The notes below the pieces were generated by a model. That model ran no database searches, had not been told where the DNA came from, and worked only from the letters and a program-made list of their open reading frames with translations. A stretch of 64,000 nucleotides of DNA from Candidatus Obscuribacteraceae bacterium. Lineage in GTDB: Bacteria > Cyanobacteriota > Vampirovibrionia > Obscuribacterales > Obscuribacteraceae. The stretch spans positions 64,001 through 128,000 of the forward strand of contig JBGASG010000001.1 of the NCBI GenBank assembly GCA_044229845.1, read 5' to 3'. The translations under genes and the position numbers were made by a program. Below are positions 28,111 to 47,313 of the stretch, piece after piece. Position 1 is the stretch's first letter; each line of letters begins with the position of its first letter.

Positions 28111-28162
28111 CTGAAACCATCGGGACGATAGGATTTGAACCTACGACCTACTGCTCCCAAAG
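28111..28162. repeat. att direct repeat (duplicated 3' part of tRNA-Pro)
   Basis: CTGAAACCATCGGGACG...CTCCCAAAG is identical to 43180-43231. Confidence 0.95.
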
Positions 28163-28270
28163 TAGCAGATATCGATTCTATACGCTTTGCGGCGACTTGA
28201 ACAGTCTGCAAAAAGCCCATAAAATGGCGATTCTTGTTCGCGGTGTCTTGAGGTGCCTGGAAATGGTCTG

Positions 28271-28288
28271 GGTACACAGTGGGTACAA
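28271..28288. other. Candidate integrase arm-type site
   Basis: GGTACACAGTGGGTACAA; 17/18 identical to 43147-43164. Confidence 0.6.
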
Positions 28289-28320
28289 GGCGCTGCGACC
28301 TACTGCTTCGGAGCCGTCTG

Positions 28321-29592
28321 ATGCCAAACATCACTAAATCTTTCGTCGACAAACTGCCGCCTTCCGCCCCGGGTAAGGCGGATTTCCATTTCGACGACTC
28401 CCTTAAGGGGTTCGGCGTGCGGGTGAGCGGGTCGACGAAGACCTATATTGTTCAGGCGTACGTGGAAGGAAAGAAGGAGAGGCTCTCTATCGGTCGCCAT
28501 GGCGTTGTGACTGTAGACTACGCCCGCAGGGAAGCGATTAAGCGCTTAGGCGAGATGGCGGCGGGCGAGAGCCCTTCCGCAAAGAAGAGAAGCCGCGAGG
28601 TCTCCGAGACTACCCTGCGTGAGCTGTTTCAAGAGTACAAACGGACGAGGGAAGCCAGCGGCGGTCTCCGCCCGAAGACCGTCAGCATATATGAGGGTGC
28701 CCTTGTTCGCTGCTTCTCTGACTGGCTCGATTTGCCTGTTGTGCAGATTACGGGCGCGATGGTGCTGAGTCGCTTTCAGGAAATCGCCACGACTGAAGGT
28801 ACGCGCAGCAACACGGGCGGCGCTAAAGCTCAAGCGGCTCAAGCGTTCCGGGTGCTGCGCAGCCTGCTGAACTATGCAAAGGACACTTACGAAGACTCCG
28901 AGGGCAAGCCGTTTTTCCAGTCCAACCCGGTGGACAAACTAACGAAAGTCCATCGCGGATGGAGCAGGGTGGCACCGCGCAATGATGTTATCGATCCGAC
29001 GGATTTGGCAGAGTGGTATCACGCCATTCTGAAGCTGAGAAGTGATACCGCTCGGGACTTCCTTTTGTTCTGTCTCTTTACGGGACTTCGCCGGACTGCC
29101 GCTTCTAAATTGAAATGGTCCAATGTCAACTTCAAAGCGAAGACGCTATTCATCCCGGCGACCGACGACAAAACCGGCAAGGAACAGAAACTTCCGGCGC
29201 CCGAGTTCGTGCTGCAACTGCTGCACGGACGGAAGGCATCCCCCACGGTCGACATAACGTACGTCTTCCCTGGCGATAATCCTGGAACGCATTTTCAGGA
29301 GCCGAAAAGTGCAATCGCAATGGTCAAGGCGCGCTCGGGGGTTAGTTTCTCCACGCACACACTGCGGAGGACGTTTGCCACCGTAGCTAGCAAGAGAGAA
29401 CTCGCGATTCCATACTACGCGGTCAAGAATCTATTGAACCACTCCGTGAGCGGCGATGTGACCGGACATCATTACGTACAAATAGATGTAGAGGATCTGC
29501 GAGAGCCTATGGAAGCCATAGCCGCTTATCTACAAGAGCGAATGAATGTACCGACAGAACAACTGTCTGGCACCATATCCGGTGCGCAATAA
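28321..29592 (+). CDS. Tyrosine integrase with N-terminal arm-binding domain
   Basis: LKGFGVRV, TGLR, HTLRRTFAT, LLNH, HY. Confidence 0.95.
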   Translation: MPNITKSFVDKLPPSAPGKADFHFDDSLKGFGVRVSGSTKTYIVQAYVEGKKERLSIGRHGVVTVDYARREAIKRLGEMAAGESPSAKKRSREVSETTLRELFQEYKRTREASGGLRPKTVSIYEGALVRCFSDWLDLPVVQITGAMVLSRFQEIATTEGTRSNTGGAKAQAAQAFRVLRSLLNYAKDTYEDSEGKPFFQSNPVDKLTKVHRGWSRVAPRNDVIDPTDLAEWYHAILKLRSDTARDFLLFCLFTGLRRTAASKLKWSNVNFKAKTLFIPATDDKTGKEQKLPAPEFVLQLLHGRKASPTVDITYVFPGDNPGTHFQEPKSAIAMVKARSGVSFSTHTLRRTFATVASKRELAIPYYAVKNLLNHSVSGDVTGHHYVQIDVEDLREPMEAIAAYLQERMNVPTEQLSGTISGAQ

Positions 29593-30267
29593 GTGACGTC
29601 TCAAATAGACTCGCCCAGAAAACTACTCCTCGGCATGGGACTCCCGGCGGAGGCTGTGGAGGAAGTGCTGGGTTTAGCGCATGTGTATCAAAAGATTTGG
29701 CTACCCGTGACGTCAATCAGCAGAGAGCAGCGTGCCGAATTCGCAGCGCGTTTACTTCCAGCCCTAGAAACGATTCGAGAATTGGCTGCTGAGCAGAATG
29801 CAGATATCTGGGCACTAACACTCGCTGAGAGCGTGAAGCGCGATTGGGTGAGGGATGCTGAACATCATGTTATATCTCTCGCGGACGCGTTTTCTCCGAG
29901 CGCGCGAGATGTTTACGCTCGCCTTAATGAATCCAGACGAATACTGTCTGAGGAAGCGGAGCTGCTAGTCGCAATGGTGAGCGAGTCCCATCGAGCGCTT
30001 GTGAAAACGCGAAAGCAATTCGACCAACGGTCGCGCTATAGCCTCGCCGGACTAGTGGCAAGAGCGCTGCGCCGCCATGACGTGGACGTGCCCAAGCCGC
30101 GTCCAGAACGGAAAACCACCTATACGCTCGTCCTACAGGCGATTTTTTGTGACATTCTGAAAGATGTGAACAAGAACAGCAACCGGAACGGGCTATTCAC
30201 CGTCGCCTTAGAGGGATACAAGCGGTACATAACGGACAGCTGGCCAGAAACTCCTTTTGAAAAATAG
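29593..30267 (+). CDS. Hypothetical protein
   Basis: Begins immediately after the integrase stop; 224 aa. Confidence 0.65.
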   Translation: MTSQIDSPRKLLLGMGLPAEAVEEVLGLAHVYQKIWLPVTSISREQRAEFAARLLPALETIRELAAEQNADIWALTLAESVKRDWVRDAEHHVISLADAFSPSARDVYARLNESRRILSEEAELLVAMVSESHRALVKTRKQFDQRSRYSLAGLVARALRRHDVDVPKPRPERKTTYTLVLQAIFCDILKDVNKNSNRNGLFTVALEGYKRYITDSWPETPFEK

Positions 30268-30348
30268 GGAGGAGTTCGTGGCGCGGATGAGCGTCTGGAC
30301 TCCTCCCTTGATCAGGACTGACAATCCTCGCATTGTTTAGCGAGGATT
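30267..30348 (+). promoter_or_regulatory. Two hairpins ahead of alpA, the second hiding its SD
   Basis: GGGAGGAGT/ACTCCTCCC (30267-30307) and AATCCTCGC/GCGAGGATT (30323-30348). Confidence 0.55.
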
Positions 30349-30354
30349 TTGATT

Positions 30355-30618
30355 ATGTCAACAATTGAAACTGCCCAGATCGTGCCCGAGCCGTACAGGG
30401 GACGCAGTCACTTGCGTCGAAAGGAATGCGCAGCTATCTCCGGATTGTCGATTGCCTTCTTTGATAGAGCGGCATACGAGGGCTCTGGACCTCCGTATGC
30501 AAAGCTGGGAAACGCGACCCTCTATCCAGTGCGCGAGTTCTTTGGATGGTTGGAAGCCCTAACCGTACAGAGCACCTCCGAGGCGGATGCGAAGCGCACC
30601 GCTCGCGGTGCCAAGTAA
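30355..30618 (+). CDS. AlpA/excisionase-like HTH protein
   Basis: LRRKECAAISGLS...GSGPPYAKLG...Y......WL. Confidence 0.85.
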   Translation: MSTIETAQIVPEPYRGRSHLRRKECAAISGLSIAFFDRAAYEGSGPPYAKLGNATLYPVREFFGWLEALTVQSTSEADAKRTARGAK

Positions 30619-30632
30619 GGCGGAAGCAACCA

Positions 30633-32441
30633 ATGACGAAAAAGAAAAACACCGCCGGCGAGGGCGGTGCTCAATACATTCAGCACGAATGTACCTCGCA
30701 GGATACAACGGGCAGACCTGAGAGCGCAAGTGTTCCGAGCTTGCCGCCGCTGGTATTGTCCGACACTGAGAGAATTCGGGACACGCTTAGAACCATCGCC
30801 CAGAGGGTTCCTGACAAAATTGCAGATAAGACAGAACTGGGACGACTGAATAAAAAGTACCGCGTCCCGGTCAAGGATTTGCAAGAAGAGCTGAATCGGC
30901 TTCGAGCGGAAATAGCCGAGGCGCGGATTGCACCACCAGCGCCGCCAACACCGGAACAGGTAGCCGCAGCCGAGGAGCGCAGAGTCGAAGCGAAACAAAA
31001 CACGGCGCGAAAAGCCGCTGAAGAAGCCGAGATCGAAGAGGCGGCGGAAGCGCTCGCTCACTCGCAAAACCTTTTCGAGAACTGGGCGCGAGACTTTGCG
31101 CTGACGGGATACATTGCTGATGCCGTGCTTGGCGCTACCCTTCTCGTGATGCTCGTCTCGCGCCTGCGGTCTCACCCGACCGGCTTCATGTTCGTCGGCG
31201 AGTCGGGCAGTGGCAAATCAGACGCCATTCTGAGTGCTGTCAAATTCATCCCACCGGAATATGTTCTTCACCTAACGTCGGTTAGTGAGAAAGCGCTCTA
31301 TTACATGGGAGATGTGGGCGCCAAGTTATTACTCTTCGGCGAAATGCAGCCAACTCGTCCTGGGGAAGACGACTTTCGGCAATGCGCACTTAGGCAACTT
31401 ATTTCCGAAGGCAAGCTCACCAGAGGGATTGCAGAGTCGGACGGACAGTCTGTTTCGTTCGAACTGAAGGAGACGACGAACGCCGGCAGTGTTGTAGCTT
31501 CGTCAGTTCACGGACCGAGCAAGTGGGACCATCAAACTGTCACGCGTTTTTCATGGACTCATACAGATTCCACACGAAGCGCCACGGCGGCTGTACTTGC
31601 TAAGCGCGCGGCTAGAGCGGAAAGACCTTGGGAGCGCAACGAGCAACTAGATAAACGCATTCGCGTTTGGCAAGTATTCCACCAGCGGCTGACACCAAGG
31701 GCGGTGCAAATCCCTTATGCCCAAATAATCATTCCGTCCGACGAGCACGTAGCTGCCAGACGGCTGCAGGGTCTATTGCATGCCATGATTGAGTGCTCGG
31801 CGCTCGTTCACCAGTATTCTCGGGAGACCGTAAGCGGGACCGATGGTGTCGAATATCTTGTCGCAAGCATTCAAGACTATGACGTCGCCTATGAACTTCT
31901 CGGGCGCAACGCACCCAGAACTAATGAGTCCTGTGGCGATGCCGCGCTCTCTGCATATCAAGCCATTAAGCCGCATTTGCTAGGGCGCGATCCTTACGGA
32001 GAGCCCAAATATTTGCACCTGGCTCAAATCCGAAGCATCTTGAAAAAGCCGAAGGAAACGGTGCGCGGATGGGTTGATGACCTTTGCGAAGCTGGACTCT
32101 TGGAACACGACGGCAAATGGGGAAGGCAGTACAAATTCATTCTTGGTCCCGCCGAGGTCGATCCGTCTCAGAGCCTCGGGCTGGTGTCACCGGGGGCGGT
32201 CCGGGCAAAAATGACCGGTCTTTCGGTCTCAGCTGAAGAGCCGGAACCGCAGAGGCTTTCTGATATACAGCTGCACCTCGGTCTAATCGGTTCTTCGCGC
32301 TCGTCGACCGAAAGACCGGCGGCGAGTTCAGCTACCGGCACCCGGTCGAACAACCCGCCTATCAGGGATTCTGAACGACAGACCGAAAGACCGACAGAAG
32401 ACGACGACACACCTCCGCCACTCGTCGAGGAGGTGTACTGA
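30633..32441 (+). CDS. P-loop ATPase/helicase (primase partner)
   Basis: GESGSGKS, SEKALYY, LRQLISEGKL; wHTH-like C-terminal part. Confidence 0.75.
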   Translation: MTKKKNTAGEGGAQYIQHECTSQDTTGRPESASVPSLPPLVLSDTERIRDTLRTIAQRVPDKIADKTELGRLNKKYRVPVKDLQEELNRLRAEIAEARIAPPAPPTPEQVAAAEERRVEAKQNTARKAAEEAEIEEAAEALAHSQNLFENWARDFALTGYIADAVLGATLLVMLVSRLRSHPTGFMFVGESGSGKSDAILSAVKFIPPEYVLHLTSVSEKALYYMGDVGAKLLLFGEMQPTRPGEDDFRQCALRQLISEGKLTRGIAESDGQSVSFELKETTNAGSVVASSVHGPSKWDHQTVTRFSWTHTDSTRSATAAVLAKRAARAERPWERNEQLDKRIRVWQVFHQRLTPRAVQIPYAQIIIPSDEHVAARRLQGLLHAMIECSALVHQYSRETVSGTDGVEYLVASIQDYDVAYELLGRNAPRTNESCGDAALSAYQAIKPHLLGRDPYGEPKYLHLAQIRSILKKPKETVRGWVDDLCEAGLLEHDGKWGRQYKFILGPAEVDPSQSLGLVSPGAVRAKMTGLSVSAEEPEPQRLSDIQLHLGLIGSSRSSTERPAASSATGTRSNNPPIRDSERQTERPTEDDDTPPPLVEEVY

Positions 32442-33340
32442 TGGATATATCGAGAGACCTGTGTTCCCTTTTCCTGGACCGCTTCGTCAATCGCACGGAT
32501 GTCTATAACCGCCAGTGGTGCCAAGGCGAAGACTTTGGATACGCCGCCACCTACGAGCCCGTCACGCTGGATTTGATTACTCAGCACCTCCTGGGCGCTG
32601 TCACGCTGTCACTGCCCGCGCTCTCGTCGGAGTCTACTTGTAAATGGGTTGCGTGGGACTCTGACGCCGCAGATGGTGCCATCGACGCTCTGGCAGATGT
32701 CCTTCAGTCCCACGGCTGGCATGCAATTCGGGAAGCTAAACGAGAGGCGCGTGACGGTCATTTGTGGGTGCTGTTCGATAAACCGGTGCCTTCCGTCCAT
32801 GCCATTCGTTTTGGCGCCTGTTTCGAGCGCGCAGCGGGCATAGCGAAGGGTTCCATCGAGTTCTTCCCGAAACAACCGCGAGCCGCGAAAGTCGGCAGCG
32901 CATTGAGGGCACCACTTGGAATTCATCGCAAGCCAAGTGCAGGCAATTGTCGGGGCTGGTTTGAGGGTCCCGCCCTGAATGTGGTGGCGCAGCTTGAATG
33001 GCTGGCGGCTCAGCCTCTGAACTCGGCGGCGGCACTCGTCGCCTACGCCGAAGAGCTGGAGCGCAGAGAGCGAGCAACCAATCCGCCGAAGAGAATACCT
33101 CCGCCGGTGAGTGGTGGCACTCGTCGCAATATCCTCGAATTAGTGCCAGAACATCAGCGGCGCAGACTGGGGTCGGAGATTGTCGCGCAGTGCCCAGCGT
33201 GCGCCGAGTCCGGTGGCGACACTCACGCCGATAACCTCCGCATCAAGGTGGACGGCTCGACGTTTTGCTGCGTTGAGGGAGGACCCGGGCGTGTTCATAA
33301 ACAAAGAGATATTCTGCGCGCCCTGGGGGCGTGGAACTAG
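32441..33340 (+). CDS. Archaeo-eukaryotic primase (TOTE-type AEP) with C-terminal Zn finger
   Basis: R.DVY..QW, CKWVAWDSD, GHLWVLF, EFFPKQ, LRAPLG; CPAC. Confidence 0.8.
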   Translation: MDISRDLCSLFLDRFVNRTDVYNRQWCQGEDFGYAATYEPVTLDLITQHLLGAVTLSLPALSSESTCKWVAWDSDAADGAIDALADVLQSHGWHAIREAKREARDGHLWVLFDKPVPSVHAIRFGACFERAAGIAKGSIEFFPKQPRAAKVGSALRAPLGIHRKPSAGNCRGWFEGPALNVVAQLEWLAAQPLNSAAALVAYAEELERRERATNPPKRIPPPVSGGTRRNILELVPEHQRRRLGSEIVAQCPACAESGGDTHADNLRIKVDGSTFCCVEGGPGRVHKQRDILRALGAWN

Positions 33341-33434
33341 CACCGAATATGGTGCAGCCCTTTCGTGACACGGAACAGAACAGATGCAGCACATCTATAA
33401 CTCAAATCAATAATTGCTAGAAAGGCAATTGTAA

Positions 33435-33782
33435 ATGCCAAACATCAAAACAATGTACATTAATCTAACCGATGACCTGAACGCGCCAGCGCAAGGAGTG
33501 GTGCTTCTGGGCGACGACCTGAGCACCAAGTTCCGGATCACCAGACCAGCCCCGGGGATGCCCGCTTCTGTCGAATTCAGAGAAGCGATTTTTGATTCAC
33601 CTGACACCGAGGAGCGAGCCGTAGCTGTCATCATGGCTGACTATGGATACCTAAAGCGGAAGTTTGTTCGACTTTTCCGAAATGACCTGATCGCAAGCCC
33701 TGACCAGTTTGGGATGTGCGTCCCGCGACTCTTGGTGCAAGGAAGAACCAAACCGAGTTCAGAGCCGGAGGACAACTTCTAA
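33435..33782 (+). CDS. Hypothetical protein
   Basis: ORF with AAAGG upstream; ends before a terminator. Confidence 0.6.
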   Translation: MPNIKTMYINLTDDLNAPAQGVVLLGDDLSTKFRITRPAPGMPASVEFREAIFDSPDTEERAVAVIMADYGYLKRKFVRLFRNDLIASPDQFGMCVPRLLVQGRTKPSSEPEDNF

Positions 33783-33808
33783 GATCTGTTTAGAGGTGTG
33801 AATAAGTC

Positions 33809-33841
33809 AATGCTGCCACTACTCCCGGTGGCAGCATTTTG
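33809..33841 (+). terminator. Intrinsic terminator between convergent genes
   Basis: AATGCTGCCAC/GTGGCAGCATT 11-bp stem followed by T's. Confidence 0.8.
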
Positions 33842-33844
33842 TCT

Positions 33845-34834
33845 TTAGCCCCACTCCAGCGGTTCGCGCAGCGCCTCTTCGATATCTTTGTCGCACCCGC
33901 ATTTGCACTCAATTAGTAACTTGCAGCCCAAATTAAGGCGACTGAGCTTATCGGGACTTTCATCGATCATCATGAATTCGGAGCCGTTCATCGTTAGCTT
34001 TGCACCGATAATCCATTCTTTATTCGGACCGAAGAATCCGCAACGATCATGGTACGAAAATCGGTGTTTACCGTAGAGGGCATCGACTTGGATAAATGCA
34101 ACCCTGTTGGAGCCAAGTCGATTCATATGCAGGATGCGCGTACCTCTCCACTCAACAATAAGTTCCGACTTGGGCGTAAGAATGTCGAATCCATCGGATG
34201 GCACCACTATTAATTCATTTCGCCTTATCAGTGCAAATAGTCCACTTTCGTTGAAAAATGCCGCGTTCAGTGATAGGACTGATGAGGTAGATGGTTCTGT
34301 GTCGGCATCGAACCAGAGTACTGGAATTGCATTGATTTGAACCGTGGCTCCCTCAGTGAACTCACCCCGGTTGCCCTCCCGCCCTAGCAATAGCCGGGTG
34401 GGAAAACCTGGAAGGAAAAACTCATCCTCGCGAACGAATCCCTGCTGCTTAGCCCTCGGATTAGCGCGCGCGGCTGCTACCTGAGTATCGTCGATGGCGC
34501 CGCGAGTCTTCATATTGTGGTGCCTAACGCAAATCATCGCTATGCCCTCAGCGGCATGGTCGAATTTGAGATTCGCGAAAGTGGGTTTGAAATGATCGTA
34601 TTCGCAAATGGCGGCGCCGCAAAAGACGCAACCGAAACCACACTCCTCCCGAACCTGCTGTTTAACACTGACCGGCAGATGGCGGCTGACCCCGTAGCGG
34701 TTGTAGTCCTTGAATTGCTTGCGCGGCTCGCCGGTCTCGTCAGTGAGCACCTTGTCGCATGCGCGGCATTGTGTCGCCTTCGTCGGAATAGACTCTGCGC
34801 AGTGCGTGCATGGTTCTGTTTCTTGCCTACCCAA
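33845..34834 (-). CDS. HNH endonuclease with N-terminal zinc ribbon
   Basis: CTHC..CRAC; VREECGFGCVFCG, EYDHF, ICVRHH. Confidence 0.8.
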   Translation of the reverse strand: MGRQETEPCTHCAESIPTKATQCRACDKVLTDETGEPRKQFKDYNRYGVSRHLPVSVKQQVREECGFGCVFCGAAICEYDHFKPTFANLKFDHAAEGIAMICVRHHNMKTRGAIDDTQVAAARANPRAKQQGFVREDEFFLPGFPTRLLLGREGNRGEFTEGATVQINAIPVLWFDADTEPSTSSVLSLNAAFFNESGLFALIRRNELIVVPSDGFDILTPKSELIVEWRGTRILHMNRLGSNRVAFIQVDALYGKHRFSYHDRCGFFGPNKEWIIGAKLTMNGSEFMMIDESPDKLSRLNLGCKLLIECKCGCDKDIEEALREPLEWG

Positions 34835-34980
34835 GGTTCCCGGCTCCGATTAGGGAATCCGGGATTATATAGCTTTGGCGCACGAATGTATATATCGACT
34901 TGGGCGAAAATGTCATCGGTGTGAATAAGCGCTATCGGGGGCTCCCGGATGTGAAAAGGGAGGGGTACCCGGGTAGGTCT

Positions 34981-35328
34981 TTATGTGGTACCGGATATGG
35001 TGCGCATCCAGGAGCGGTGCATTTGCCAGCTCGACGCTGCGAGCCTCACCTCACTGTACAATGCCACACCGGCATTGTCGGTCCAAGGGCAGTGATCATC
35101 GAGCAGTTCGGACGCATCGCCCGCGTAGATGTCCACACTATCCATCAGCACGTAGTGAAGCGCTGCTCCGTCCTCGTCCAGCAGTAAGACTCGCTTGCCC
35201 TCTGCCGCCTGGTCGAAGATGAGCGCGCCCGTCTCTCTGACGCAGCACCTAATAGCGGCGACTTCGGCAGCCGTGAGCGCCGCGTCCCCTTCAATGAGTT
35301 CGAGGAGCGCGAGGTCGTTACTTAACAC
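34981..35328 (-). CDS. Hypothetical protein
   Basis: Overlaps the integrase-2 stop; plausible composition. Confidence 0.5.
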   Translation of the reverse strand: MLSNDLALLELIEGDAALTAAEVAAIRCCVRETGALIFDQAAEGKRVLLLDEDGAALHYVLMDSVDIYAGDASELLDDHCPWTDNAGVALYSEVRLAASSWQMHRSWMRTISGTT

Positions 35329-36577
35329 GTCGAAGGTTCCTGCGCCCGTCGGTCGCGGTAATAGAGGGCGGCGTCGCCGGTCCGGGAATCGGCTGCTCGG
35401 GCTGTCCCTTTAGATATTGCTGCGCTTTCTCCATCGCGTCTCTCAGTGGATCGACAGCCAGGTGCGTGTACCTTTCAGTCATTCGGGAGGAGCTGTGCCC
35501 TAGGGCGCGTTGAATCATGAACGCTGACGCCCCGCTCATGCCCAGCGTCGAGCCGACAGTGTGCCGCAAGTCATGGAGCACCATGTCTGACAATCCGGCT
35601 TCTTTCCGGACTATTCTCCAGGTTGCCTCAACGGCGGCGATGTGCCCCGTCTTCGTTGGCTGTCTGGTCCTCTCTGGAAACACCCACGGCGTAAAGACTT
35701 GGAGCTGTGAACGGCGATTGAGCACGTTCAGCGCCGCCTCCGTCAGCGGTACCACTAACGGCTTGCGTTGCTTCGTGGTGCGAGCAGGCACTGACAGACA
35801 ACGATTAGCAAAATCAACATGCTCCCATCGCATCGCCAAAACGTTCGACTTCCGCAGCCCAGTAAATAAAAGTAGTTCGATTGCATCACTTGAATCGCAA
35901 GGGTGGTTCCTGAGCGCCCTCATGAGGCGGTCGAATTCGTCGCCGGGCTTAACGTATCGCTCCCGCCCGTATTCAGCAAAGCGTTTAACACCAAGCGTCG
36001 GGTCTCTCAAGAGTTTGATTACATCGTGAATGAGACACCAATTAAGGCACGCCTTAAAGAAGGTAAATTGCTTGTTCGCAGTCGCCGCACCGAACTCCTC
36101 GGCGGTTTCGTTCACCCAGGTTTGAACATCGATTGATTGAATCTGAGCCACTGGCACATCGTGGAAGCGTGCGCAATAACGCTGAAAGCCCATCTCTGCA
36201 TCCGCCACGGTCCGCGGCGCGGTGTGCTGCCGCAGGTGACCATCCATGTAACTCTCAAACGCCTGACGGTACGTGCGAGTTTCCTTCCGCAGCCTTTGTC
36301 GCATCACTCCCGGCTGAATGTCGAATTCTAGGGCACCGTCGATTTCCTCAGCCTTATCGCGTGCATCATGCACCGGCATTCGAGGCCATGTTCCTAGCTT
36401 TAGCTTGTTGAGACGCATTTTGATGCGTCGGACGTAGTACCAATCCCTTCGACCATCGGGATAGATTCGCAAGCCTAAATGGGGCCGCCGGGCATCCCAG
36501 ATGAAGTATTCAGACTCTTTCGACTGAAGATTTACGATGAGCGCGTCTGTCAAATCGGGCTTGTTTGCGATTGTCAT
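35318..36577 (-). CDS. Second tyrosine integrase with arm-binding domain
   Basis: LGLRI, TGLRK, HDLRHT, LGHSS, TERY; GAGG SD before ATG 36577. Confidence 0.93.
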   Translation of the reverse strand: MTIANKPDLTDALIVNLQSKESEYFIWDARRPHLGLRIYPDGRRDWYYVRRIKMRLNKLKLGTWPRMPVHDARDKAEEIDGALEFDIQPGVMRQRLRKETRTYRQAFESYMDGHLRQHTAPRTVADAEMGFQRYCARFHDVPVAQIQSIDVQTWVNETAEEFGAATANKQFTFFKACLNWCLIHDVIKLLRDPTLGVKRFAEYGRERYVKPGDEFDRLMRALRNHPCDSSDAIELLLFTGLRKSNVLAMRWEHVDFANRCLSVPARTTKQRKPLVVPLTEAALNVLNRRSQLQVFTPWVFPERTRQPTKTGHIAAVEATWRIVRKEAGLSDMVLHDLRHTVGSTLGMSGASAFMIQRALGHSSSRMTERYTHLAVDPLRDAMEKAQQYLKGQPEQPIPGPATPPSITATDGRRNLRRVK

Positions 36578-36611
36578 TTTTGCTGTTACCTCAGTGGTTA
36601 CCTGGCTGACG

Positions 36612-36831
36612 CAGGACCGAGCCCGCAATCGATCCGCCGGCGCACCATTCGCGGTGCCGTCATACTCCTCCTTTAGGAGGCGGTCCTGTCCATTAAACAC
36701 CCCTATCAGACCCTGTGCAGGGTCGACTAAACCCGCTTGCCGTGCGGCTCCCAGGAGATGCTCACTATTTGGACGCGCACTAAATAAGACACCGGGGTAC
36801 GGAACGGCAAAACCGGCGGGAACCATCCCGC
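36612..36831 (-). other. Hairpin-rich non-coding leader of integrase 2 (possible structured RNA)
   Basis: At least five inverted repeats in ~220 bp. Confidence 0.4.
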
Positions 36832-36942
36832 AACATCGTGCGAGATCGGCGCCCAATAGTTAGCAAATGCCGGGAGCAAAGGTCAGCTTAACGATTCGTT
36901 GCGTTCGAACCATCAATCGTTTCAGTGTCTTCTGGGCTTTGT

Positions 36943-37281
36943 TCAGCCTTCTTTCTCGCGCGCTCTGTCCGTATCGCGTTTTTGCTTGCGCTTTTGTTTT
37001 TCAAGCTGGGCTTCTTCTCGTTCCGCTTCAAGCCCCAGATTTTTCTGCCATTCCATGACGGGTTGTAGGGCGAGAATCCAGATGACTAGACCCGGAAAAA
37101 CGCCGATGAAGACGCCAAGATCGCGGTGCCTTTCTAGCGCAGGAAAAAGTCCAAAAAGCATTCTAATAGACCCGTCTGTGCAAAAGAGGTAAGCACATAG
37201 CATAAAGAGCCACACCGCGGCAACTTTCGCCAGGTGGAGTAACGCGGCGAAGCTGTCGTAAAACCGTCGAGAGTCTTTCAT
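36943..37281 (-). CDS. Small two-TM membrane protein with charged tail
   Basis: ATG 1 nt after the upstream stop; two hydrophobic segments. Confidence 0.6.
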   Translation of the reverse strand: MKDSRRFYDSFAALLHLAKVAAVWLFMLCAYLFCTDGSIRMLFGLFPALERHRDLGVFIGVFPGLVIWILALQPVMEWQKNLGLEAEREEAQLEKQKRKQKRDTDRAREKEG

Positions 37282-37282
37282 T

Positions 37283-37732
37283 TCAAGTTTGGGTTGATTC
37301 AGACCAAGTGCGCGTTCTGCCGGAATTCGACAATTCAATGGAACTGGAATTTCCAACGCAACCCATGCTGATTAGTGCATTGCCGTCAGCATCAGCGAAA
37401 CCCAGTGAACCTAGACCATCCGCTCCTACGCCCACCATGAACCTAGGGTTGCCGTGAACATCGTACATGCGGATAAGCGCATGCGCTTGGTCATCAATTT
37501 CAATCGTCACTCGGGGCGAGCCGTGCTCGTGGAGTAATGCAATCATTGGAATGTCGCGTCCCACCCCAGACAGCCCAACAAATGCACGAGGCTCTCCTTT
37601 TCTGTCATGGAGTGTCAAGTTCACGTGATTGTCTTCGTCTACTCCAAGGTATGCCCGGATTTGTCCGTTCAGGTCTCTCACATGGAAGGATTCGGCTTCT
37701 ACCACCTTCGCCTTCAAAACTTCATCGCTCAT
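37283..37732 (-). CDS. Hypothetical beta-repeat protein
   Basis: GGAGG SD; repeated 'h.D..G.PR' units. Confidence 0.7.
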   Translation of the reverse strand: MSDEVLKAKVVEAESFHVRDLNGQIRAYLGVDEDNHVNLTLHDRKGEPRAFVGLSGVGRDIPMIALLHEHGSPRVTIEIDDQAHALIRMYDVHGNPRFMVGVGADGLGSLGFADADGNALISMGCVGNSSSIELSNSGRTRTWSESTQT

Positions 37733-37747
37733 TGTAATTGCCCTCCA

Positions 37748-38422
37748 TCAACACCGATAATCTTCTTCAATTCCTAATGCCACCGCCTGCGACACCGCGA
37801 CAACGGCGCTACAGACTTCGTTAATTTTGTCTCCGAACGCCTTAAGCTCATCGCGAGTCATCGTCGGCTTTTTGAGGTGCAAGACTTCTCTGGTGAAAAC
37901 GTTTTCAAATATTTCATCTGCGAAGGCGAACCGATCAGGATACGGACCGCCATAGTTCCTGACTATTTTGCCTACCGAGGAACCGTGTGCCTGGACATCA
38001 ACAATCGCTTTTTCGAGCCAATCATGGAGAACCTTGTGCTTGTGATCGAAGTAATGGAATGTACCCCGATTGCGAATTCGGTTGAAGATTTCGAACATCT
38101 CTTTGCGTGGACCGCTTGGGGTCACCTCTCGCAATAGTTCGAGTGCTGGAGTCGCACGTCTTTCTATCAGCGCTTTTACTTGGTATCCTTTGTCGGTTAG
38201 TTCAACCAAGGGGAGTGCTTCCATGGCATGAGAGCACATCAAACGCATGATGTACGAGCGAGTGCCTTCACGGAACTCTGAGAACTTCGGGTTGTCGTAC
38301 TTTTCGTCGAGTGCTATATGCATAATGAATGCAGACATCAAATCGTGCCCTACCATTACCCAGGCAATTGCCAGCCCGGACTCGGGCATTTGCTCCAGCC
38401 GCGAATACTTGATGAAGTGCAT
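37748..38422 (-). CDS. Helical protein with HEPN-like R-N-x4-H motif
   Basis: IRNRGTFHY in a helical context; start uncertain. Confidence 0.55.
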   Translation of the reverse strand: MHFIKYSRLEQMPESGLAIAWVMVGHDLMSAFIMHIALDEKYDNPKFSEFREGTRSYIMRLMCSHAMEALPLVELTDKGYQVKALIERRATPALELLREVTPSGPRKEMFEIFNRIRNRGTFHYFDHKHKVLHDWLEKAIVDVQAHGSSVGKIVRNYGGPYPDRFAFADEIFENVFTREVLHLKKPTMTRDELKAFGDKINEVCSAVVAVSQAVALGIEEDYRC

Positions 38423-38453
38423 GATCGTTTGAATCAAAATTGAATCTCTCGTC

Positions 38454-39500
38454 CTAATGAACTGATACTGGCGCGAGTGGACCGTAGCCACGGATCTTGT
38501 GTCCCCGCTTAGTGAGTTCGCGGGCAACAATCTCAAGCAATTCTTTGAGGTTCTGAGCAGGTTCCACCGTGGCAAGTCCAGGTGCCTCAGTCTTGGTATA
38601 GACTGTCATCACCCTTGATACGGCAATGCCTCCAACCGCGTCCGTGACAGGGATTGAAAATTCGATAGGGATAGACAGCGGGGGGAATCCCTTTACCACG
38701 CCTAATACGCGCGTCCCGACATTTCTGCTGTCTGGTGAGGTCGCTCCAGGACGCACGCGTATTTGTTCGGGTGCGATAAAGACCGGCGAACCGCTAGCAC
38801 CATGGGTAATGCCTAGCTCGCACATATAGGCTTGCTGTGGAATCGGCATAGCATCACTCGTAAGCCAATACTCGTCAGATAGCATCGCCACTTTTCCACT
38901 TCTAATTAGCGGCAGATTCTTTTGAAATCCCGCATAGCCGAGAAAGTATCCTGCGGTGAAAACCTCTGAGCCTTCTGTTACGCCGACGAGTTTGATTCGT
39001 TCAATGTCTAACAGACAATCATGCCCAATGCTAGCGGGATTGGTGTCCGTGGGTGCTTTCACTTGTAGCGCCACAAGGTCAACATCAGCACGGTCGGGCT
39101 GGAAAAAATTCTGGTCGGGCGGGGAAGACTTTAGCGGAAACGGCTGACAAACAGCATTCCCATTGACTCCGTTTAGTCTCAAGACCACTTCGTCATGCCC
39201 AGCAACGACATGCCTGTTCGTAATCAGAAGCAACTGCGTCCTAGGCGTGGATGGGTCGTCTTCGAGAGTTAAATGCATGAAAAAGCCGGTGCCGAGCGTG
39301 TCCTTTGCGTTCGTGCAAGGCTCAGAGCCTTTCCTGTAGATGAAAACAATGCTCTCTTTTGCTTTGGTATACGGGCTGACGTACTTTTCTGGGGATACCT
39401 CCGCCTCGGACAAAGGCGCATCGCTGTGTGCCAAACAGGGATGAAGAGCAACGACTAATCCAGTCACTAATCCAGTCAACGCGTGAACAATCCGGCGCAA
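38454..39500 (-). CDS. Trypsin-like serine protease, probable signal peptide
   Basis: GTGF, TNRHV, DLVAL, GASGSPVF; TTG 39500 with GGAGG SD (longer start at 39587 possible). Confidence 0.85.
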   Translation of the reverse strand: MRRIVHALTGLVTGLVVALHPCLAHSDAPLSEAEVSPEKYVSPYTKAKESIVFIYRKGSEPCTNAKDTLGTGFFMHLTLEDDPSTPRTQLLLITNRHVVAGHDEVVLRLNGVNGNAVCQPFPLKSSPPDQNFFQPDRADVDLVALQVKAPTDTNPASIGHDCLLDIERIKLVGVTEGSEVFTAGYFLGYAGFQKNLPLIRSGKVAMLSDEYWLTSDAMPIPQQAYMCELGITHGASGSPVFIAPEQIRVRPGATSPDSRNVGTRVLGVVKGFPPLSIPIEFSIPVTDAVGGIAVSRVMTVYTKTEAPGLATVEPAQNLKELLEIVARELTKRGHKIRGYGPLAPVSVH

Positions 39501-39583
39501 AGAACTTTCCTCCAGAGTGAGATAGGGAGATAGCCCGACTACAATGACCTCGTTCGCGGTGTCCGATTCGACGCAAGTTCGTA

Positions 39584-40672
39584 TCACGACTCATTTTTGC
39601 TTTTTACTGTCACGTCGATGGTGACTTCATCGGCATCCGACGTCAGCTCAGGGGGTAGTTGCACTTTATCAACGCGATTATTGACTTGATGTATATCGTT
39701 GGCTTGTCCCTCGACGTAGATTCCGGCAAAACCTTCGGTGAAGGTAGTGATGTGTTGCGTGAAGCCGGACTCGAAATCCTCACTGCAAAAAGGTATTGCC
39801 CCTTTGAAGGTCGCATACAGAGGTAACTCTAAGCTTTGAGCGGCCTTGTAGATCTCGTGAAGAGTGGTTCTGTTGGAGCACAGTTTAGTAGAGAGCAATA
39901 CGCCCTTGCAATCGCCTTCGCGGCCGTGTTTTCTCAGCCAGCTCGCAAGGTGGACTTCGAGTCTGTCTAGACCGGTGTGACCAAAACACAGGTAGAACTC
40001 GTCGCCATGAAGTTGTCCCCACTCGCGAATCTCAATGTTCTCATGCGGATCATTCTGATAACAGTAGCCGTAGACCTTAGGTCGACTGTCCGACCCTGAA
40101 TGCTGTTCGAAGTGGAGCTGGGTTGCATCGTAGTATTTTGGAAACAACTCCTTCTTAAAGCCTGCAAGCGCGTCTTCGAATTCCTCGACCATCCCACTGC
40201 CAGAGGGCATGCGAGCAAATCGGACAAAAGCATCCGCTGCTTCTTTTCCTAGCACCGAGTGAATAGCGTCGCGTATCCGATTTTTGCATTGTCCAACCAT
40301 TTTAATTGCGCCTAATTCGGTAGGCATCTCCCGTTGCAATGTTGCACGCGTGAGGCTTATGTCCTGCTCGGCGCCGATGAGTGTTGTTATTGCTGTGCCG
40401 AGGTCCGTGAGCTTGCCATCGTTCGTTACAAGACCGATGGCTTCCAAATATTGCACCCCCTCGTCCTGCAACTTCAATATCATAGTGCTCGTTTCACGCA
40501 GCCAATGGTTGTGAAGAGCGACTCTCAGCGCGCCTTCGGTCGGGAGTTCATCGGGATTGTTTCGCCCGGATATTGCTCCTCTCCATATGGCTCCTCTGAA
40601 GCAATGGCTGTCATCATTGAAAGCGGTCAGTAATACTTGAATTACTCGCCAATCTCTCTCTGAATGTCTCAT
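39584..40672 (-). CDS. Hypothetical multidomain protein (wHTH-like + helical + unknown)
   Basis: 362-aa ORF tightly packed in the operon. Confidence 0.7.
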   Translation of the reverse strand: MRHSERDWRVIQVLLTAFNDDSHCFRGAIWRGAISGRNNPDELPTEGALRVALHNHWLRETSTMILKLQDEGVQYLEAIGLVTNDGKLTDLGTAITTLIGAEQDISLTRATLQREMPTELGAIKMVGQCKNRIRDAIHSVLGKEAADAFVRFARMPSGSGMVEEFEDALAGFKKELFPKYYDATQLHFEQHSGSDSRPKVYGYCYQNDPHENIEIREWGQLHGDEFYLCFGHTGLDRLEVHLASWLRKHGREGDCKGVLLSTKLCSNRTTLHEIYKAAQSLELPLYATFKGAIPFCSEDFESGFTQHITTFTEGFAGIYVEGQANDIHQVNNRVDKVQLPPELTSDADEVTIDVTVKSKNES

Positions 40673-40676
40673 CGAC

Positions 40677-41786
40677 CTATCCTCCGAAGCACTTCATAAC
40701 TATTTCGATGAACTGTGCATATGCCGACTGAATCATTTGCAGTCCCTGCACCGCACCGCTCACGGTGGCAAAGACGCCTCCGACCGCCAGGGCTTTAGTG
40801 ACAATGCTCTGCTTGTCCCGCTTCGCTTCGGGCCGATCAATCTCCGAGACCACTTGATTGATGAGCGAGACTGCCATCGATTTGGACGCATCTGGAATTT
40901 CTGAGACTTCGACGGCGGCAGTCAACTGTTTTACCGATTTCGCAATCTCAGGATAGTTGTTCTGCAAAACTTGTACGTGGTTGTTGATTTGCGTAATGTC
41001 GTGCGCAACCGCCCCTGGCGCTTGGACGATACCATTTCCATGGATTTCAATGTACGTGGTGTTGCCGCTTTGATCCTTGCGTTGTTCGCGTTCGTCTTCG
41101 TTCTGTACTCTTGTTTCGCTCATGGTAGCTTGGTCCTCGTAGTGTTGCGGATCTCTCAAAGCCTCTGCTCTAAGGCTCTCCAAAAACGATAAGCGCTTCT
41201 CGACCGACTTGTCGAAGTCGTGGGCTGTTCGTGGTCTAGAGGTACCCCAATCCACGATGCGCTTGAACCTCAGAGCCGTCGTGGAACCGAATTCCTGAGA
41301 TAACGCAGAGACAACCCTGGATGACCAAAGTTTCTTCTGCTCGATTCCGTCCTTCCTTCCTGCCAAGAAATCAGTTCGAATCTGAGCTAGATCTGCGATG
41401 AGTCTGTCTATACCGGCTAGCTGTCGCGCGGTCTTCGATCCTGCCGAAACCTGTTGAGTAGACACAAATCCTCGCTGTAAGTCGTCGCGTACTGCTTCCA
41501 GAATTCCCTGCATACCATGGAACGCCATCACTTTCTCGGATGGTCTGCCGTTCAAGAAATTATTGGCGAACACATTCGCCTGTCTGTTGTGTGCATGATT
41601 CTTGTCCGGCACTGCCGCCTCGATGGCTGCGAGCGCGCGCGTTATTGCCCTTGATCGGTCGGCGAACGGAGCGCTCTTTTGTTCTCGCTGACGGAATTCG
41701 ATGCAAGCGCGGATGTCGGCGAGCGCCTCTTCTAGATGAGCAATCTTTGTGGTCAGAGAGTCTTGCAAAGCCGAGCCCCTACTCAC
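40677..41786 (-). CDS. Hypothetical protein: two helical domains + shared C-terminal module
   Basis: GTGA overlap with the upstream stop; C-terminus aligns with that of 41783..43102. Confidence 0.75.
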   Translation of the reverse strand: MSRGSALQDSLTTKIAHLEEALADIRACIEFRQREQKSAPFADRSRAITRALAAIEAAVPDKNHAHNRQANVFANNFLNGRPSEKVMAFHGMQGILEAVRDDLQRGFVSTQQVSAGSKTARQLAGIDRLIADLAQIRTDFLAGRKDGIEQKKLWSSRVVSALSQEFGSTTALRFKRIVDWGTSRPRTAHDFDKSVEKRLSFLESLRAEALRDPQHYEDQATMSETRVQNEDEREQRKDQSGNTTYIEIHGNGIVQAPGAVAHDITQINNHVQVLQNNYPEIAKSVKQLTAAVEVSEIPDASKSMAVSLINQVVSEIDRPEAKRDKQSIVTKALAVGGVFATVSGAVQGLQMIQSAYAQFIEIVMKCFGG

Positions 41787-43102
41787 ATTGGTGGTGGCAA
41801 GGTCGACAAGAACTCCAGGATGCGTGCCCAAAGTTGACTGGCAATAGGTCGCAATGTTTCGAAGTTCTCATAGGTCTTTGCGGTTTCATCGATGCAGCGC
41901 ACCAGTCCTTGAGCTTGGTCTTTGATGTGCCATGGCTTGCGCTGATCGGCGGGCAAATCGATCTGTTCGGCTGTGACCTTAATGCGGTCGGCCGGCTCAA
42001 CTTTTGCCGCAGGGGGTGCGTCCAATGCTGACAGCGAGTCAGCGAGTTGCTTCAACAAGTCAGCTATCTCGGTGCTCTGTTGGCTGATAGACTGGAGGTG
42101 CGTATTCGTCTGCTGGATGTCCCTTGCCACCGCTCCCGGTGCCTGAATAATTGAGGGTCCAGTCGCTTCAATGTTTGTGTGGTAAGTGGTGACAGAGGTT
42201 GGGACGGGTGAGCTGGACTGCAATATTTCCGCAGTCGATTTCCCGCTCCTGCGAGCCTGTAGAGCACTGATTCCAGTCGCAGTTACTCTGTACCAGATTC
42301 CGTCCTCGTTCTGAATCCAATTGAATTCATTCAACATGCGGCTAAAGGCCTCAAGCGCTGCTATGTTTCCCTTTTCTGTTTTCCCGATTCGTTTCGCTAA
42401 TGTCGCTACCGAACCAGGTCCATCAAGGGTGCGGGGATAGAGTTGCAGTTTCCAGTCAACTTCGCGTGCCGCCTCAAGAATCTCTGTGATCGCTGCTTCA
42501 ACGTCAGCTTCGTCAATCGCCATTCTGAATTCAGACCCCCTCCATTTATCAAAAGCCTTCCGTCCAGGTTCCGCGACGGAGAAAACACTATTGCGGCCAG
42601 TGGCTGGTTTGAGCCATTCACGTTCCAACACGAGTCGCTTAAATGCTGCCACCATTGCTCGCATCTCTTGGGCATCGGGGGTGATAGATCGTTCTGCGCA
42701 TACTAGTTTTGGCTCGCTCGACCACGTCTCCGGTCTGTATGTCAGTTCCCACCCATTCCGTTCTGCTTGTTCGAGGAGTTGAAACGTCGCAATGGCAATA
42801 GCGTCCTCAGTCAGAGGCACCCGCTCGATTGGATCGGAAACGTTGGCGCTCACCTCCAATCCAGTAGAACTGAGGGCGAAGATCCATTGCGAAATTGATG
42901 TAAACCAATTCTTCCTGCGCATTTCATTGAAGGTCTCGATCAATGCAGTGCGCTCGCGCTTCTCCAAGCCGCCAAGGGTTAGCTCCCCAATCTTGAGAAT
43001 TGGGCCGCTATCAACGGCTCCGATGTACCTGGATTCGTCCCTGCTCGCTGTCCCGAACAGCAGTAAGAATGGCGTACTCCGCTCGCTTGCGCAGTTCTTC
43101 AT
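41783..43102 (-). CDS. Hypothetical protein: two wHTH-like repeats + shared C-terminal module
   Basis: Internal repeat 'LE.A....W.L...P.T...AF.R...E..W...G..A'. Confidence 0.75.
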   Translation of the reverse strand: MKNCASERSTPFLLLFGTASRDESRYIGAVDSGPILKIGELTLGGLEKRERTALIETFNEMRRKNWFTSISQWIFALSSTGLEVSANVSDPIERVPLTEDAIAIATFQLLEQAERNGWELTYRPETWSSEPKLVCAERSITPDAQEMRAMVAAFKRLVLEREWLKPATGRNSVFSVAEPGRKAFDKWRGSEFRMAIDEADVEAAITEILEAAREVDWKLQLYPRTLDGPGSVATLAKRIGKTEKGNIAALEAFSRMLNEFNWIQNEDGIWYRVTATGISALQARRSGKSTAEILQSSSPVPTSVTTYHTNIEATGPSIIQAPGAVARDIQQTNTHLQSISQQSTEIADLLKQLADSLSALDAPPAAKVEPADRIKVTAEQIDLPADQRKPWHIKDQAQGLVRCIDETAKTYENFETLRPIASQLWARILEFLSTLPPPM

Positions 43103-43146
43103 CCGTCAGCAATTCCGTTGTGACCACTCGGAGCGTTCACCGATTA

Positions 43147-43164
43147 GGTACATAGTGGGTACAA
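43147..43164. other. Candidate integrase arm-type site
   Basis: GGTACATAGTGGGTACAA, near-copy of 28271-28288. Confidence 0.6.
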
Positions 43165-43179
43165 AGCCAAGCCCACGTT

Positions 43180-43231
43180 CTGAAACCATCGGGACGATAG
43201 GATTTGAACCTACGACCTACTGCTCCCAAAG
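43180..43231. repeat. att direct repeat overlapping tRNA-Pro
   Basis: Identical to 28111-28162. Confidence 0.95.
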
Positions 43232-43262
43232 CAGCCGCGCTACCAAGCTGCGCCACGTCCCG
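43189..43262 (-). tRNA. tRNA-Pro(TGG), CCA not encoded
   Basis: CGGGACG acceptor stem, GCAGCTTGGTAGC D-arm, CTGCT-TTGGGA-GCAG anticodon arm, GGTTCAAATCC T-arm; 74 nt. Confidence 0.97.
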
Positions 43263-46548: not shown

Positions 46549-47313
46549 CTACGGTGCATCGTGTGCGGTGGCACCACCGGCGGAGCCGGGTGCAAACGTG
46601 CCGCCCATCGAGCTGCCCGTAACTGAATTGTTGCCGGTGCCCGAGGTCCCTTCGGTCTGCGCCATAAGCTCTGCCAGGCGCGCCCGCTGTTCCTCATCGA
46701 GAAGGGCGCGCAGCCGCAGCATCAATCGAATGCGGTCCAGCTGAATTTCGCCCTGCAACTTATTGATCTCTTCCTGCATCGCAATCACTGTTTGCTCATC
46801 AGGGCTCGGCTCCAGCGAAAGCTTGTGCAGCCGCTGCAACATATTTTTGCTGCGCCCGATCTTTACCCGCGCTTCCAGTTCATAGTCGCGCACCATGCGA
46901 CGCATTTCGCGCTCTTGCCCGGAATTTGCGCCGGCATCGACATAAATACGAATCGGATCAAATCGCATTCCCTGGGGAGGAGTGCGCTTGGGTGGCGGTG
47001 CCGGAGTGTTTTCGCCTGTGCTCTGCGACTCGGTGGTGCCGGGTCCGCCGGTCGATCCGCCTACCGCTCCGGCCGCGGAACTGCCTGCCGCATTGCCGGC
47101 TTCTGCCGCGTCCGCACGAGCATCCAACGCTGCCGGTCCGAGCACTGTCAGACAGGCAATCGCAATCGCTGTTACTGCCGAAGCCTTGCCGCGGCTCAGT
47201 CGATACCCAGGTGCACAAATGGTGCCCAGGCGTGAATCGGTGCTCCTGCCAGAACCGCTTTGGTTTGCGCTTGCTGCAGTGCTTGCGGAATAGAGTTTTT
47301 GCCTGCTTGCCAC
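46549..47313 (-). CDS. Spy/CpxP-like periplasmic protein
   Basis: Helical core ending LLDEEQRARL; true start likely near 47199 since the ORF overlaps the CHAT gene. Confidence 0.6.
   Translation of the reverse strand: MASRQKLYSASTAASANQSGSGRSTDSRLGTICAPGYRLSRGKASAVTAIAIACLTVLGPAALDARADAAEAGNAAGSSAAGAVGGSTGGPGTTESQSTGENTPAPPPKRTPPQGMRFDPIRIYVDAGANSGQEREMRRMVRDYELEARVKIGRSKNMLQRLHKLSLEPSPDEQTVIAMQEEINKLQGEIQLDRIRLMLRLRALLDEEQRARLAELMAQTEGTSGTGNNSVTGSSMGGTFAPGSAGGATAHDAP

What the first reader, a model, noticed from the sequence alone, without database searches (positions are those of the whole stretch)
39671..42190. Three consecutive proteins share an A-x-D-I-x-Q-x-N motif (possible homotypic or amyloid interaction motif)
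Seen: 41783..43102 has IIQAPGAVARDIQQTNTHL (~42092-42190), 40677..41786 has IVQAPGAVAHDITQINNHV (~40971-41060), and 39584..40672 has GQANDIHQVNNRV near its C-terminus (39671-39703). ANDIHQVNNRV vs AHDITQINNHV is 7/11 identical. Established: RHIM and bacterial amyloid signalling (BASS) motifs are short Q/N/G/hydrophobic segments shared by neighbouring genes. Inference: this may be a new motif of that kind. It lacks the canonical RHIM (I/V)Q(I/V/L)G core, and the third copy could be chance.
Basis: partly seen in the sequence, partly recalled or inferred. Interest (0 to 1): 0.85.

Follow-up and report, generated by a model that had tools for sequence, protein, structure and literature searches.

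The report
Shared tail module on defence proteins
The shared motif is the start of a widespread, unnamed tail domain of about 125 residues that sits where close relatives carry a known antiviral killing enzyme (TIR), so it is more likely a new defence effector or assembly module than a stand-alone amyloid tag.

Summary
The motif is real in all three genes, but it is not a free-standing tag. In A and B it begins a shared C-terminal module of about 125 aa: an Asn/Gly/Ile/Val-rich beta-type segment, an amphipathic helix (the A-x-D-I-x-Q-x-N part) and a four-helix bundle. The module ends 150 of 151 relatives collected from several phyla. C is a truncated member: it is colinear with a relative that keeps the whole module (E 5e-27). 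The genes abut or overlap as one operon in a 15-kb island at tRNA-Pro. In same-family genomes the N-terminal domains of A, B and C are fused to a CAP12/Pycsar TIR domain instead, once as an adjacent pair. So the module fills the effector slot of sensor-effector defence proteins; the mechanism is inferred, not shown. RHIM and BASS architecture are not met. A and B match unusually well in the motif (57%) against 18% in the bundle, which keeps co-assembly, possibly amyloid-like, open.

The parts
41783..43102 (-). Gene A (439 aa): two tandem copies of an unnamed ~95-aa domain (res ~96-190, ~191-290; winged-helix-like by eye, fold not tested) plus the full C-terminal module
   Evidence: res 98-290 match a TIR-fused protein in L045 at E 1e-21
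41786..42184 (-). Module in A (res 307-439): beta-type segment, motif helix, four-helix bundle
   Evidence: 85.8 bits against a profile without A/B/C
42104..42127 (-). A-x-D-I-x-Q-x-N copy in A
40677..41786 (-). Gene B (369 aa from a GTG overlapping A's stop): two predicted four-helix bundles plus the full module
   Evidence: GTGA overlap; 369-aa cluster member P0035; model; first bundle matches a TIR-fused protein in L044 at E 6e-12
40680..41069 (-). Module in B (130 aa)
   Evidence: AlphaFold2 with 19-row alignment: mean pLDDT 86, res 1-15 below 50, helices 20-38, 40-55, 60-77, 86-102, 110-128; PADLOC PDC-M14B C-terminal part E 7e-5
41007..41060 (-). Beta-type Asn/Gly/Ile/Val segment of B upstream of the named motif (family pattern I-x-[VI]...G-x-[LIV]-N-x-G; derived Pro-containing variant unique to A and B)
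   Evidence: low confidence, no secondary structure in the monomer model
40983..41006 (-). A-x-D-I-x-Q-x-N copy in B, first turns of the amphipathic helix
39584..40672 (-). Gene C (362 aa): unnamed N-terminal region, unnamed alpha/beta domain (res ~197-302), truncated module
   Evidence: res 7-163 match a TIR-fused protein in L044 at E 3e-8
39587..39757 (-). Remnant of the module in C: beta-type segment, motif helix (motif at 39680-39703) and start of the next helix; about 80 residues of the bundle absent
   Evidence: same sequence in an independent contig
38454..39587 (-). Trypsin-like peptidase gene overlapping C's stop; similar to PADLOC candidate PDC-S45
   Evidence: Pfam Trypsin_2 E 1.6e-7; PDC-S45 E 2.4e-16; GTGA overlap
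37748..38575 (-). Next gene of the run; carries an R-x5-H motif as in HEPN RNases (motif recalled, no family hit)
   Evidence: sequence; no Pfam hit
43180..43235 (.). 56-nt att repeat overlapping the 3' part of tRNA-Pro (43189-43262)
28111..28166 (.). Second att repeat (98% identical), far end of the 15,069-bp island
28279..36856 (.). Island core: two tyrosine integrases (28279-29592, 35318-36856) and an AEP primase (32441-33340)

Best explanation
A, B and C are paralogous cargo genes of an integrative island, built as variable N-terminal domain(s) plus one shared C-terminal module. Shown: anatomy, homology, truncation in C, island and operon context, and that the same N-terminal domains carry a TIR domain in relatives. 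Inferred: these are one-gene sensor-effector defence proteins of the SpbK type. The N-terminal domains bind a phage or other invader component and cluster the protein; the beta segment and helix promote self-assembly; the assembled bundle is the toxic output, perhaps acting on the membrane through its last two amphipathic helices. A and B probably stem from an old local duplication or module shuffle. C has lost the bundle and is either decaying or takes part only through its motif.
For: Module ends 150 of 151 relatives behind unrelated N-termini. Of 7 other genomes of the order with A's repeated domain, 3 fuse it to PF10137 TIR and 1 to DUF4062; 1 is stand-alone and 2 are broken beside transposase genes. 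In L044 two adjacent genes, one with B's first bundle plus A's two repeats and one with C's N-terminus, both end in TIR (65% identical). The N-terminal domain of module protein L009 finds 4 of 4 plasmid hits annotated TIR or nucleotide-binding protein. Module genes lie beside Mrr nucleases, DUF1156/DUF499, relaxase, RadC or resolvase genes in L014, L015, L022, L023, L024. The module resembles the C-terminal part of PADLOC candidate PDC-M14B in B and in most of 20 hits. Patchy occurrence: 3 of 107 genomes of the order. In SpbK the N-terminal domain is proposed to bind phage portal and cluster the TIR (PMC12847820, passages).
Against: No activity is shown for the module, and no fold match stands out (best Z 10.2 among generic four-helix bundles; none at E<=0.001). 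Only 3 of 67 bundles have a 19-residue window of mean hydropathy >=1.6 (B 1.68, A 0.52), so a membrane role is weak. In cyanobacteria the module ends pentapeptide-repeat proteins (8 of 14 scanned), not obvious sensors. The PDC-M14B matches are weak (E 3e-8 to 2e-3) and partial. Sharing a slot with TIR could also mean that the module only oligomerises an N-terminal effector. No function is known for any of the N-terminal domains.
Confidence: 0.5

Rival explanations
1. Amyloid-type signalling in reverse layout. The beta segment stacks into a cross-beta or beta-solenoid core that converts and activates the bundle behind it. A and B have locus-matched motifs so that they cross-seed, and C, with motif but no bundle, is a seed or a decoy.
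For: Composition of the segment matches that described for BASS (10.1101/2020.01.06.895854 section 9). It is unstructured in the monomer model yet holds the family's best-conserved positions (G 88%, N 85%, G 84%). A-B motif identity is 57% against 18% in the bundle, the top outlier of 171 pairs (z 3.8), with 14 of 21 identical residues on different codons. C's 11-mer is closest to B (7/11) and A (5/11) of all rows, above its full-length relative P0005 (4/11). Cyanobacterial members have longer Gly/Asn/Ser repeat-like segments.
Against: With 67 rows the outlier weakens: 15 of 887 comparable pairs reach the same motif identity, and the pair was picked for its likeness. The motif is often better conserved than the bundle across the family. 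A and B lost the conserved Asn and gained a Pro there; BASS are depleted in Pro. The part C shares best is the helical part. All 7 other larger loci examined hold one copy, as do 29 short cyanobacterial loci, bar one weak second hit. No motif-bearing NLR partner was detected.
Confidence: 0.2
2. The module is a non-amyloid homotypic adaptor of the EAD type. It joins A, B and C through a short coiled coil of the motif helices into one complex, and the output comes from the N-terminal domains or the coupled trypsin and HEPN-like genes.
For: Heptad-like spacing with Ile/Val at the core positions. The motif helix lies outside most structural matches, which cover residues ~34-130. The genes abut or overlap in one run with the peptidase. 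Atlas look-alikes include DUF4404 (0.92, on 21% of members) and TCAD2 (0.88) clusters. The EAD principle is described in PMC7159879 (passages).
Against: Mostly single-copy elsewhere. No peptidase was noticed beside the module at those loci, though only selected neighbours were scanned. The TCAD2 profile does not hit the module in this genome. The module swaps with an enzyme, not with an adaptor.
Confidence: 0.15
3. No joint function. The three genes are independent paralogues gathered in a defence hotspot; the motif is simply the slowest-evolving part of a duplicated domain, and C's tail is a decaying remnant.
For: The N-terminal domain pool is shuffled freely and often broken by insertion sequences in relatives. 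Single copies are the rule. No DNA-level similarity remains between the A and B modules.
Against: C keeps an open 362-aa frame whose stop overlaps the next start. A parallel adjacent pair with a shared TIR exists in L044. C's motif matches its neighbours better than its own full-length relative.
Confidence: 0.15

Closest known systems
One-gene sensor-TIR defence proteins (SpbK of Bacillus subtilis, PMC12847820, passages read; PF10137 CAP12/Pycsar TIR fusions)
   Same: Variable N-terminal domain plus C-terminal constant domain on a mobile element; the very N-terminal domains of A, B and C are fused to PF10137 in relatives.
   Different: No TIR here, and none found in this genome with PF10137 (genome 88% complete). 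The slot holds an all-helical module with no catalytic signature.
BASS amyloid signalling pairs and Bab/Agp (10.1101/2020.01.06.895854 abstract and sections 7, 9; 10.1101/2024.11.07.622273 parts 1-2 of 8)
   Same: Short Asn/Gly/Ile/Val-rich segment next to a small helical domain, shared by abutting genes in a defence setting.
   Different: In BASS the motif is C-terminal to a Bell domain and N-terminal on an NLR or TGP partner. Here it is N-terminal to the bundle in every full copy, there is no detected NLR, the named part is helical, and most loci have one copy.
PADLOC candidate PDC-M14B (10.1101/2024.01.29.577857, passages; not named in the main text)
   Same: Profile positions ~150-265 match the module in B (E 7e-5) and in 16 of 20 proteins scanned.
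   Different: Only the C-terminal part matches, no PDC-M14 partner was hit among 8 island proteins, and the preprint's supplementary tables, which may describe it, were not seen.
Effector-associated domains and TCAD2/DUF4404 (PMC7159879, passages)
   Same: Small helical domain shared by neighbouring genes with varied partners; Atlas feature scores 0.92 and 0.88.
   Different: No Pfam hit for A or B to these families; one relative hits DUF4404 below cut-off and outside most of the bundle; TCAD2 does not hit the module.

Membership tests
   Absent in A and B and in C's tail; present in 9 of 151 relatives, one subgroup; no RHIM Pfam hit.
BASS / Bab-Agp | Motif at the C-terminus of a Bell-type effector and the N-terminus of an adjacent NLR or TGP protein | tested here: not met
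   Motif precedes the C-terminal bundle in A and B and is near the C-end in C; no NB-ARC, NACHT or TPR hit among the island genes scanned.
BASS / Bab-Agp | Bell/HeLo-like helical domain | tested here: inconclusive
   No SesA/HeLo-type Pfam hit and no such structure among the listed fold matches; no Bell profile was available.
BASS / Bab-Agp | About 25 aa, enriched in Q/N/G/V/I, depleted in K/P/L, beta propensity | tested here: inconclusive
   Met by the upstream segment of the family; not by the named motif, which is helical by periodicity and model; A and B carry a Pro.
BASS / Bab-Agp | Motif matched within adjacent gene pairs at many loci | tested here: inconclusive
   Matched at this locus; no second multi-copy locus found among 7 larger and 29 short loci.
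BASS / Bab-Agp | Fibril formation and templated activation | not testable with these tools
   Needs ThT, EM, ssNMR and genetics.
Sensor-TIR proteins (PF10137) | C-terminal TIR domain | tested here: not met
   No TIR in A, B, C; relatives have it. The claim is 'works like', not membership.
Sensor-TIR proteins (PF10137) | Shared N-terminal domains | tested here: met
   A 98-290 E 1e-21, B first bundle E 6e-12, C 7-163 E 3e-8 against TIR-fused proteins in a pool of 42.
PADLOC PDC-M14 | Full-length match to PDC-M14B plus partner gene | tested here: not met
   Only positions 152-261 of 267 match; no partner hit.
EAD/TCAD2 adaptors | Match to the TCAD2 profile | tested here: not met
   Best hit in the genome is elsewhere, E 0.2, under cut-off.
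EAD/TCAD2 adaptors | Homotypic binding between copies | not testable with these tools
   Needs binding assays.

The most novel reading that the evidence does not exclude
The module is a self-contained 'seed plus killer' effector: a beta-stacking segment wired in front of a death bundle, freely exchanged with TIR behind many sensor domains in several phyla. At this locus A and B have co-evolved a private motif so that either sensor triggers both, and C supplies a motif-only seed or brake. This would be amyloid-like signalling without NLR or Bell domains and in the reverse layout.
Probability: 0.15. Interest if true: 0.85.

Novelty: new variant of a known kind. Interest (0 to 1): 0.5.

Why it matters
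If right, it names a widespread, unannotated domain as a new output of bacterial defence proteins, interchangeable with TIR, and labels several unknown N-terminal domains as candidate phage sensors. Natural TIR and module versions of the same sensor make a direct swap test possible. The locus also offers two full copies and one motif-only copy, a ready set for asking whether the Asn/Gly segment drives assembly. As a pure 'new amyloid motif' the finding is weaker than first scored.

Tried and rejected
Complex prediction of two B modules with one A module gave no verdict (score 0.00, mark 0.32); it is evidence neither way. Word-based protein searches for longer relatives found nothing (weak). 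Viral contigs gave no relatives; the first metagenome scan none; phage records none and plasmids one weak hit. A single-sequence search of 201 phylum genomes gave only marginal hits. In a sample of 301 genomes around a Verrucomicrobiota hit only the seed genome matched. Fold searches gave only generic four-helix bundles, so no fold family is claimed, including HEPN for B's first bundle. PDB sequence, NCBIfam, PHROGs and Atlas searches did not identify the N-terminal domains; my impression that C's alpha/beta domain is a degenerate resolvase is recalled and unsupported. Recent duplication or gene conversion between A and B is rejected (no DNA similarity; synonymous differences). The module tree leaves A and B unresolved. 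No two of 20 database hits shared a longest-contig length, so no second multi-copy locus emerged. No excision joint was seen in 4 runs of contigs, and one 264-base RNA-run contig at 39391-39654 is too little to claim expression. Literature searches showed no description of this module; 'PDC-M14' was in no paper held; 'TCAD' was not in PMC7159879 or PMC8195603. Subscription papers and preprint supplements were not covered. Earlier scan notes held nothing on this sequence or genome; the 8 word hits concern other motifs.
Full report
Observation. Genes A (41783-43102), B (40677-41786) and C (39584-40672), all on the minus strand, carry A-x-D-I-x-Q-x-N at 42104-42127, 40983-41006 and 39680-39703. 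A and B share more than the motif: 93 aligned residues at 39% identity, E 9e-14. A's stop overlaps a GTG start for B, B's stop lies 4 bases before C's start, and C's stop overlaps the start of a trypsin-like peptidase gene; a 369-aa form of B is on record. The run lies just inside a 15,069-bp island bounded by a 56-nt repeat at tRNA-Pro, with two integrases and a primase. The host lineage is not named by the tools; genome sizes of its order and class and a 'Cyanobacteriota' label on one relative suggest a non-photosynthetic relative of cyanobacteria (inference).

The module. A profile of the two C-terminal regions found 21 proteins among 1.84 billion, 2 of them A and B themselves. A further search from four of the hits gave 124 proteins, 120 listed. 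In a pool of 153 non-window proteins, a profile built without A, B or C found the module in 151, ending within 25 residues of the C-terminus in 150. The pool came from module queries, so it cannot show motif-only forms. Named members come from Teredinibacter, Nitrospira, Xanthobacteraceae and Verrucomicrobiota. A wider profile matched 33 of 401 genomes of the phylum and 3 of 107 of the order. Of 14 of the 29 phylum loci scanned, 8 are pentapeptide-repeat proteins, 1 has DUF4926 and 5 have no Pfam hit. The module has no Pfam or NCBIfam family and a weak match to the C-terminal part of PADLOC candidate PDC-M14B.

Anatomy. Across 67 rows dereplicated at 70%, the module starts with two hydrophobic positions spaced 2 apart (97% and 100%), then G-x-[LIV]-N-x-G (G 88%, N 85%, G 84%), then four hydrophobic positions spaced 3-4-3 (96-100%). 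Hydrophobic moments agree: beta-like in the first stretch (15 of 18 rows), helix-like in the motif stretch (14 of 19). The exact motif is in 0 of 151 relatives, and the Pro-containing variant of the upstream segment is unique to A and B.

The third copy. C is colinear with P0005 over residues 4-351 (E 5e-27). All 8 relatives aligned with C continue from the same alpha/beta domain into a full module; they were found through the module, and that domain also occurs without it. C's tail beats 2000 of 2000 shuffles, though it is not significant genome-wide. An independent contig confirms the early stop. C is therefore a truncated paralogue.

Is the motif matched within the locus? A and B are 57% identical over 30 motif positions and 18% over 94 bundle positions, the top outlier of 171 pairs, and 14 of 21 identical residues use different codons. 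C's 11-mer is closest to B and then A. Against this, with the larger set 15 of 887 comparable pairs do as well, the pair was chosen for its likeness, and old common descent with a slower motif would give the same picture. All 7 larger loci examined elsewhere have one copy, as do 29 short loci apart from one weak hit.

What fills the slot in relatives. Of 7 other genomes of the order with A's repeated domain, 3 fuse it to a CAP12/Pycsar TIR domain, 1 to DUF4062, 1 has it alone and 2 are broken beside transposase genes. L045 has A's two repeats then TIR (E 1e-21). L044 has two adjacent genes, one with B's first bundle (E 6e-12) plus A's repeats and one with C's N-terminus (E 3e-8), both ending in TIR. 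B's second bundle had no match in that pool of 42. The N-terminal domain of another module protein finds 4 plasmid genes, 3 annotated TIR domain protein and 1 nucleotide-binding protein. Neighbours of module genes include Mrr nucleases, DUF1156/DUF499, relaxase, RadC and resolvase genes.

Mechanism. Most likely (0.5) these are sensor-effector defence proteins in which the module replaces TIR. In SpbK the N-terminal domain is proposed to bind phage portal and cluster the TIR into an active assembly (PMC12847820, passages). By analogy, clustering here would assemble the module through its beta segment and motif helix and unleash the bundle. Every step of that chain is inferred. Membrane action is weakly supported: only 3 of 67 bundles have a strongly hydrophobic window. 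Rivals are reverse-layout amyloid signalling (0.2), a non-amyloid adaptor (0.15) and unrelated paralogues with a decaying C (0.15).

Comparison. BASS motifs are C-terminal on Bell proteins and N-terminal on adjacent NLRs (10.1101/2020.01.06.895854, abstract and sections 7 and 9), and Bab/Agp follows that layout (10.1101/2024.11.07.622273, parts 1-2 of 8). That layout and the RHIM core are not met here; composition is met only by the upstream segment. EADs are described in PMC7159879 (passages), but TCAD2 does not match. I also saw passages of PMC8195603, PMC13142454, PMC12261475 and 10.1101/2024.01.29.577857; the last one's supplementary tables, not seen, may describe PDC-M14. Eight literature searches showed no description of this module.

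Verdict. Observation confirmed and extended; amyloid reading partly supported at best. The feature is an unnamed, widespread C-terminal domain that swaps with TIR: a new variant of a known kind, interest 0.5. The most novel reading, a seed-plus-killer module with locus-matched motifs, has probability about 0.15 and would deserve 0.85.

Noticed in passing
window 28111-43235: Island with two tyrosine integrases in opposite orientation, an AEP-TOTE primase and a P-loop protein, but one att pair; may be a composite or satellite-like element. The longest public contig holding B is 15,077 bases, close to the island's length.
   Followed up: partly
window 38454-39587: Trypsin-like peptidase similar to PADLOC PDC-S45 and phrog_7688, overlapping C's stop; it has a hydrophobic N-terminal stretch that may be a signal or anchor.
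   Followed up: partly
window 37748-38575: Unknown protein with an R-x5-H motif as in HEPN RNases (recalled); no family hit.
   Followed up: no
window 33845-34834: Island gene with Cys pairs and an HNH-like stretch by eye; no Pfam or PADLOC hit.
   Followed up: no
L044:652-3092: Two adjacent genes with different N-termini and the same PF10137 TIR tail (65% identical): a TIR counterpart of the A-B-C operon.
   Followed up: yes
L023:8153-10695 and L051:2-951: A gene of the A-repeat, alpha/beta, module type split by a Mutator-family transposase, next to an Mrr nuclease; an intact 344-aa form is on record (P0033).
   Followed up: partly
L062-L090 (cyanobacterial genomes): The same module ends many 490-730-aa pentapeptide-repeat proteins, with longer Gly/Asn/Ser-rich segments in front of the bundle.
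   Followed up: partly
P0016, P0020, P0021, L014:5752-6546 and about 120 relatives: A widespread ~190-aa subfamily with an N-terminal Cys-pair (zinc-finger-like) region plus the module, unnamed in all sources.
   Followed up: partly
window 17576-19450 and 47196-49853: Outside the island: an OmpH-like plus caspase-domain protein and a TPR-rich protein with a CHAT-like C-terminus by eye.
   Followed up: no
window 43857-43954: ARAGORN call of an odd tRNA with a four-base anticodon inside a coding gene; probably spurious.
   Followed up: no
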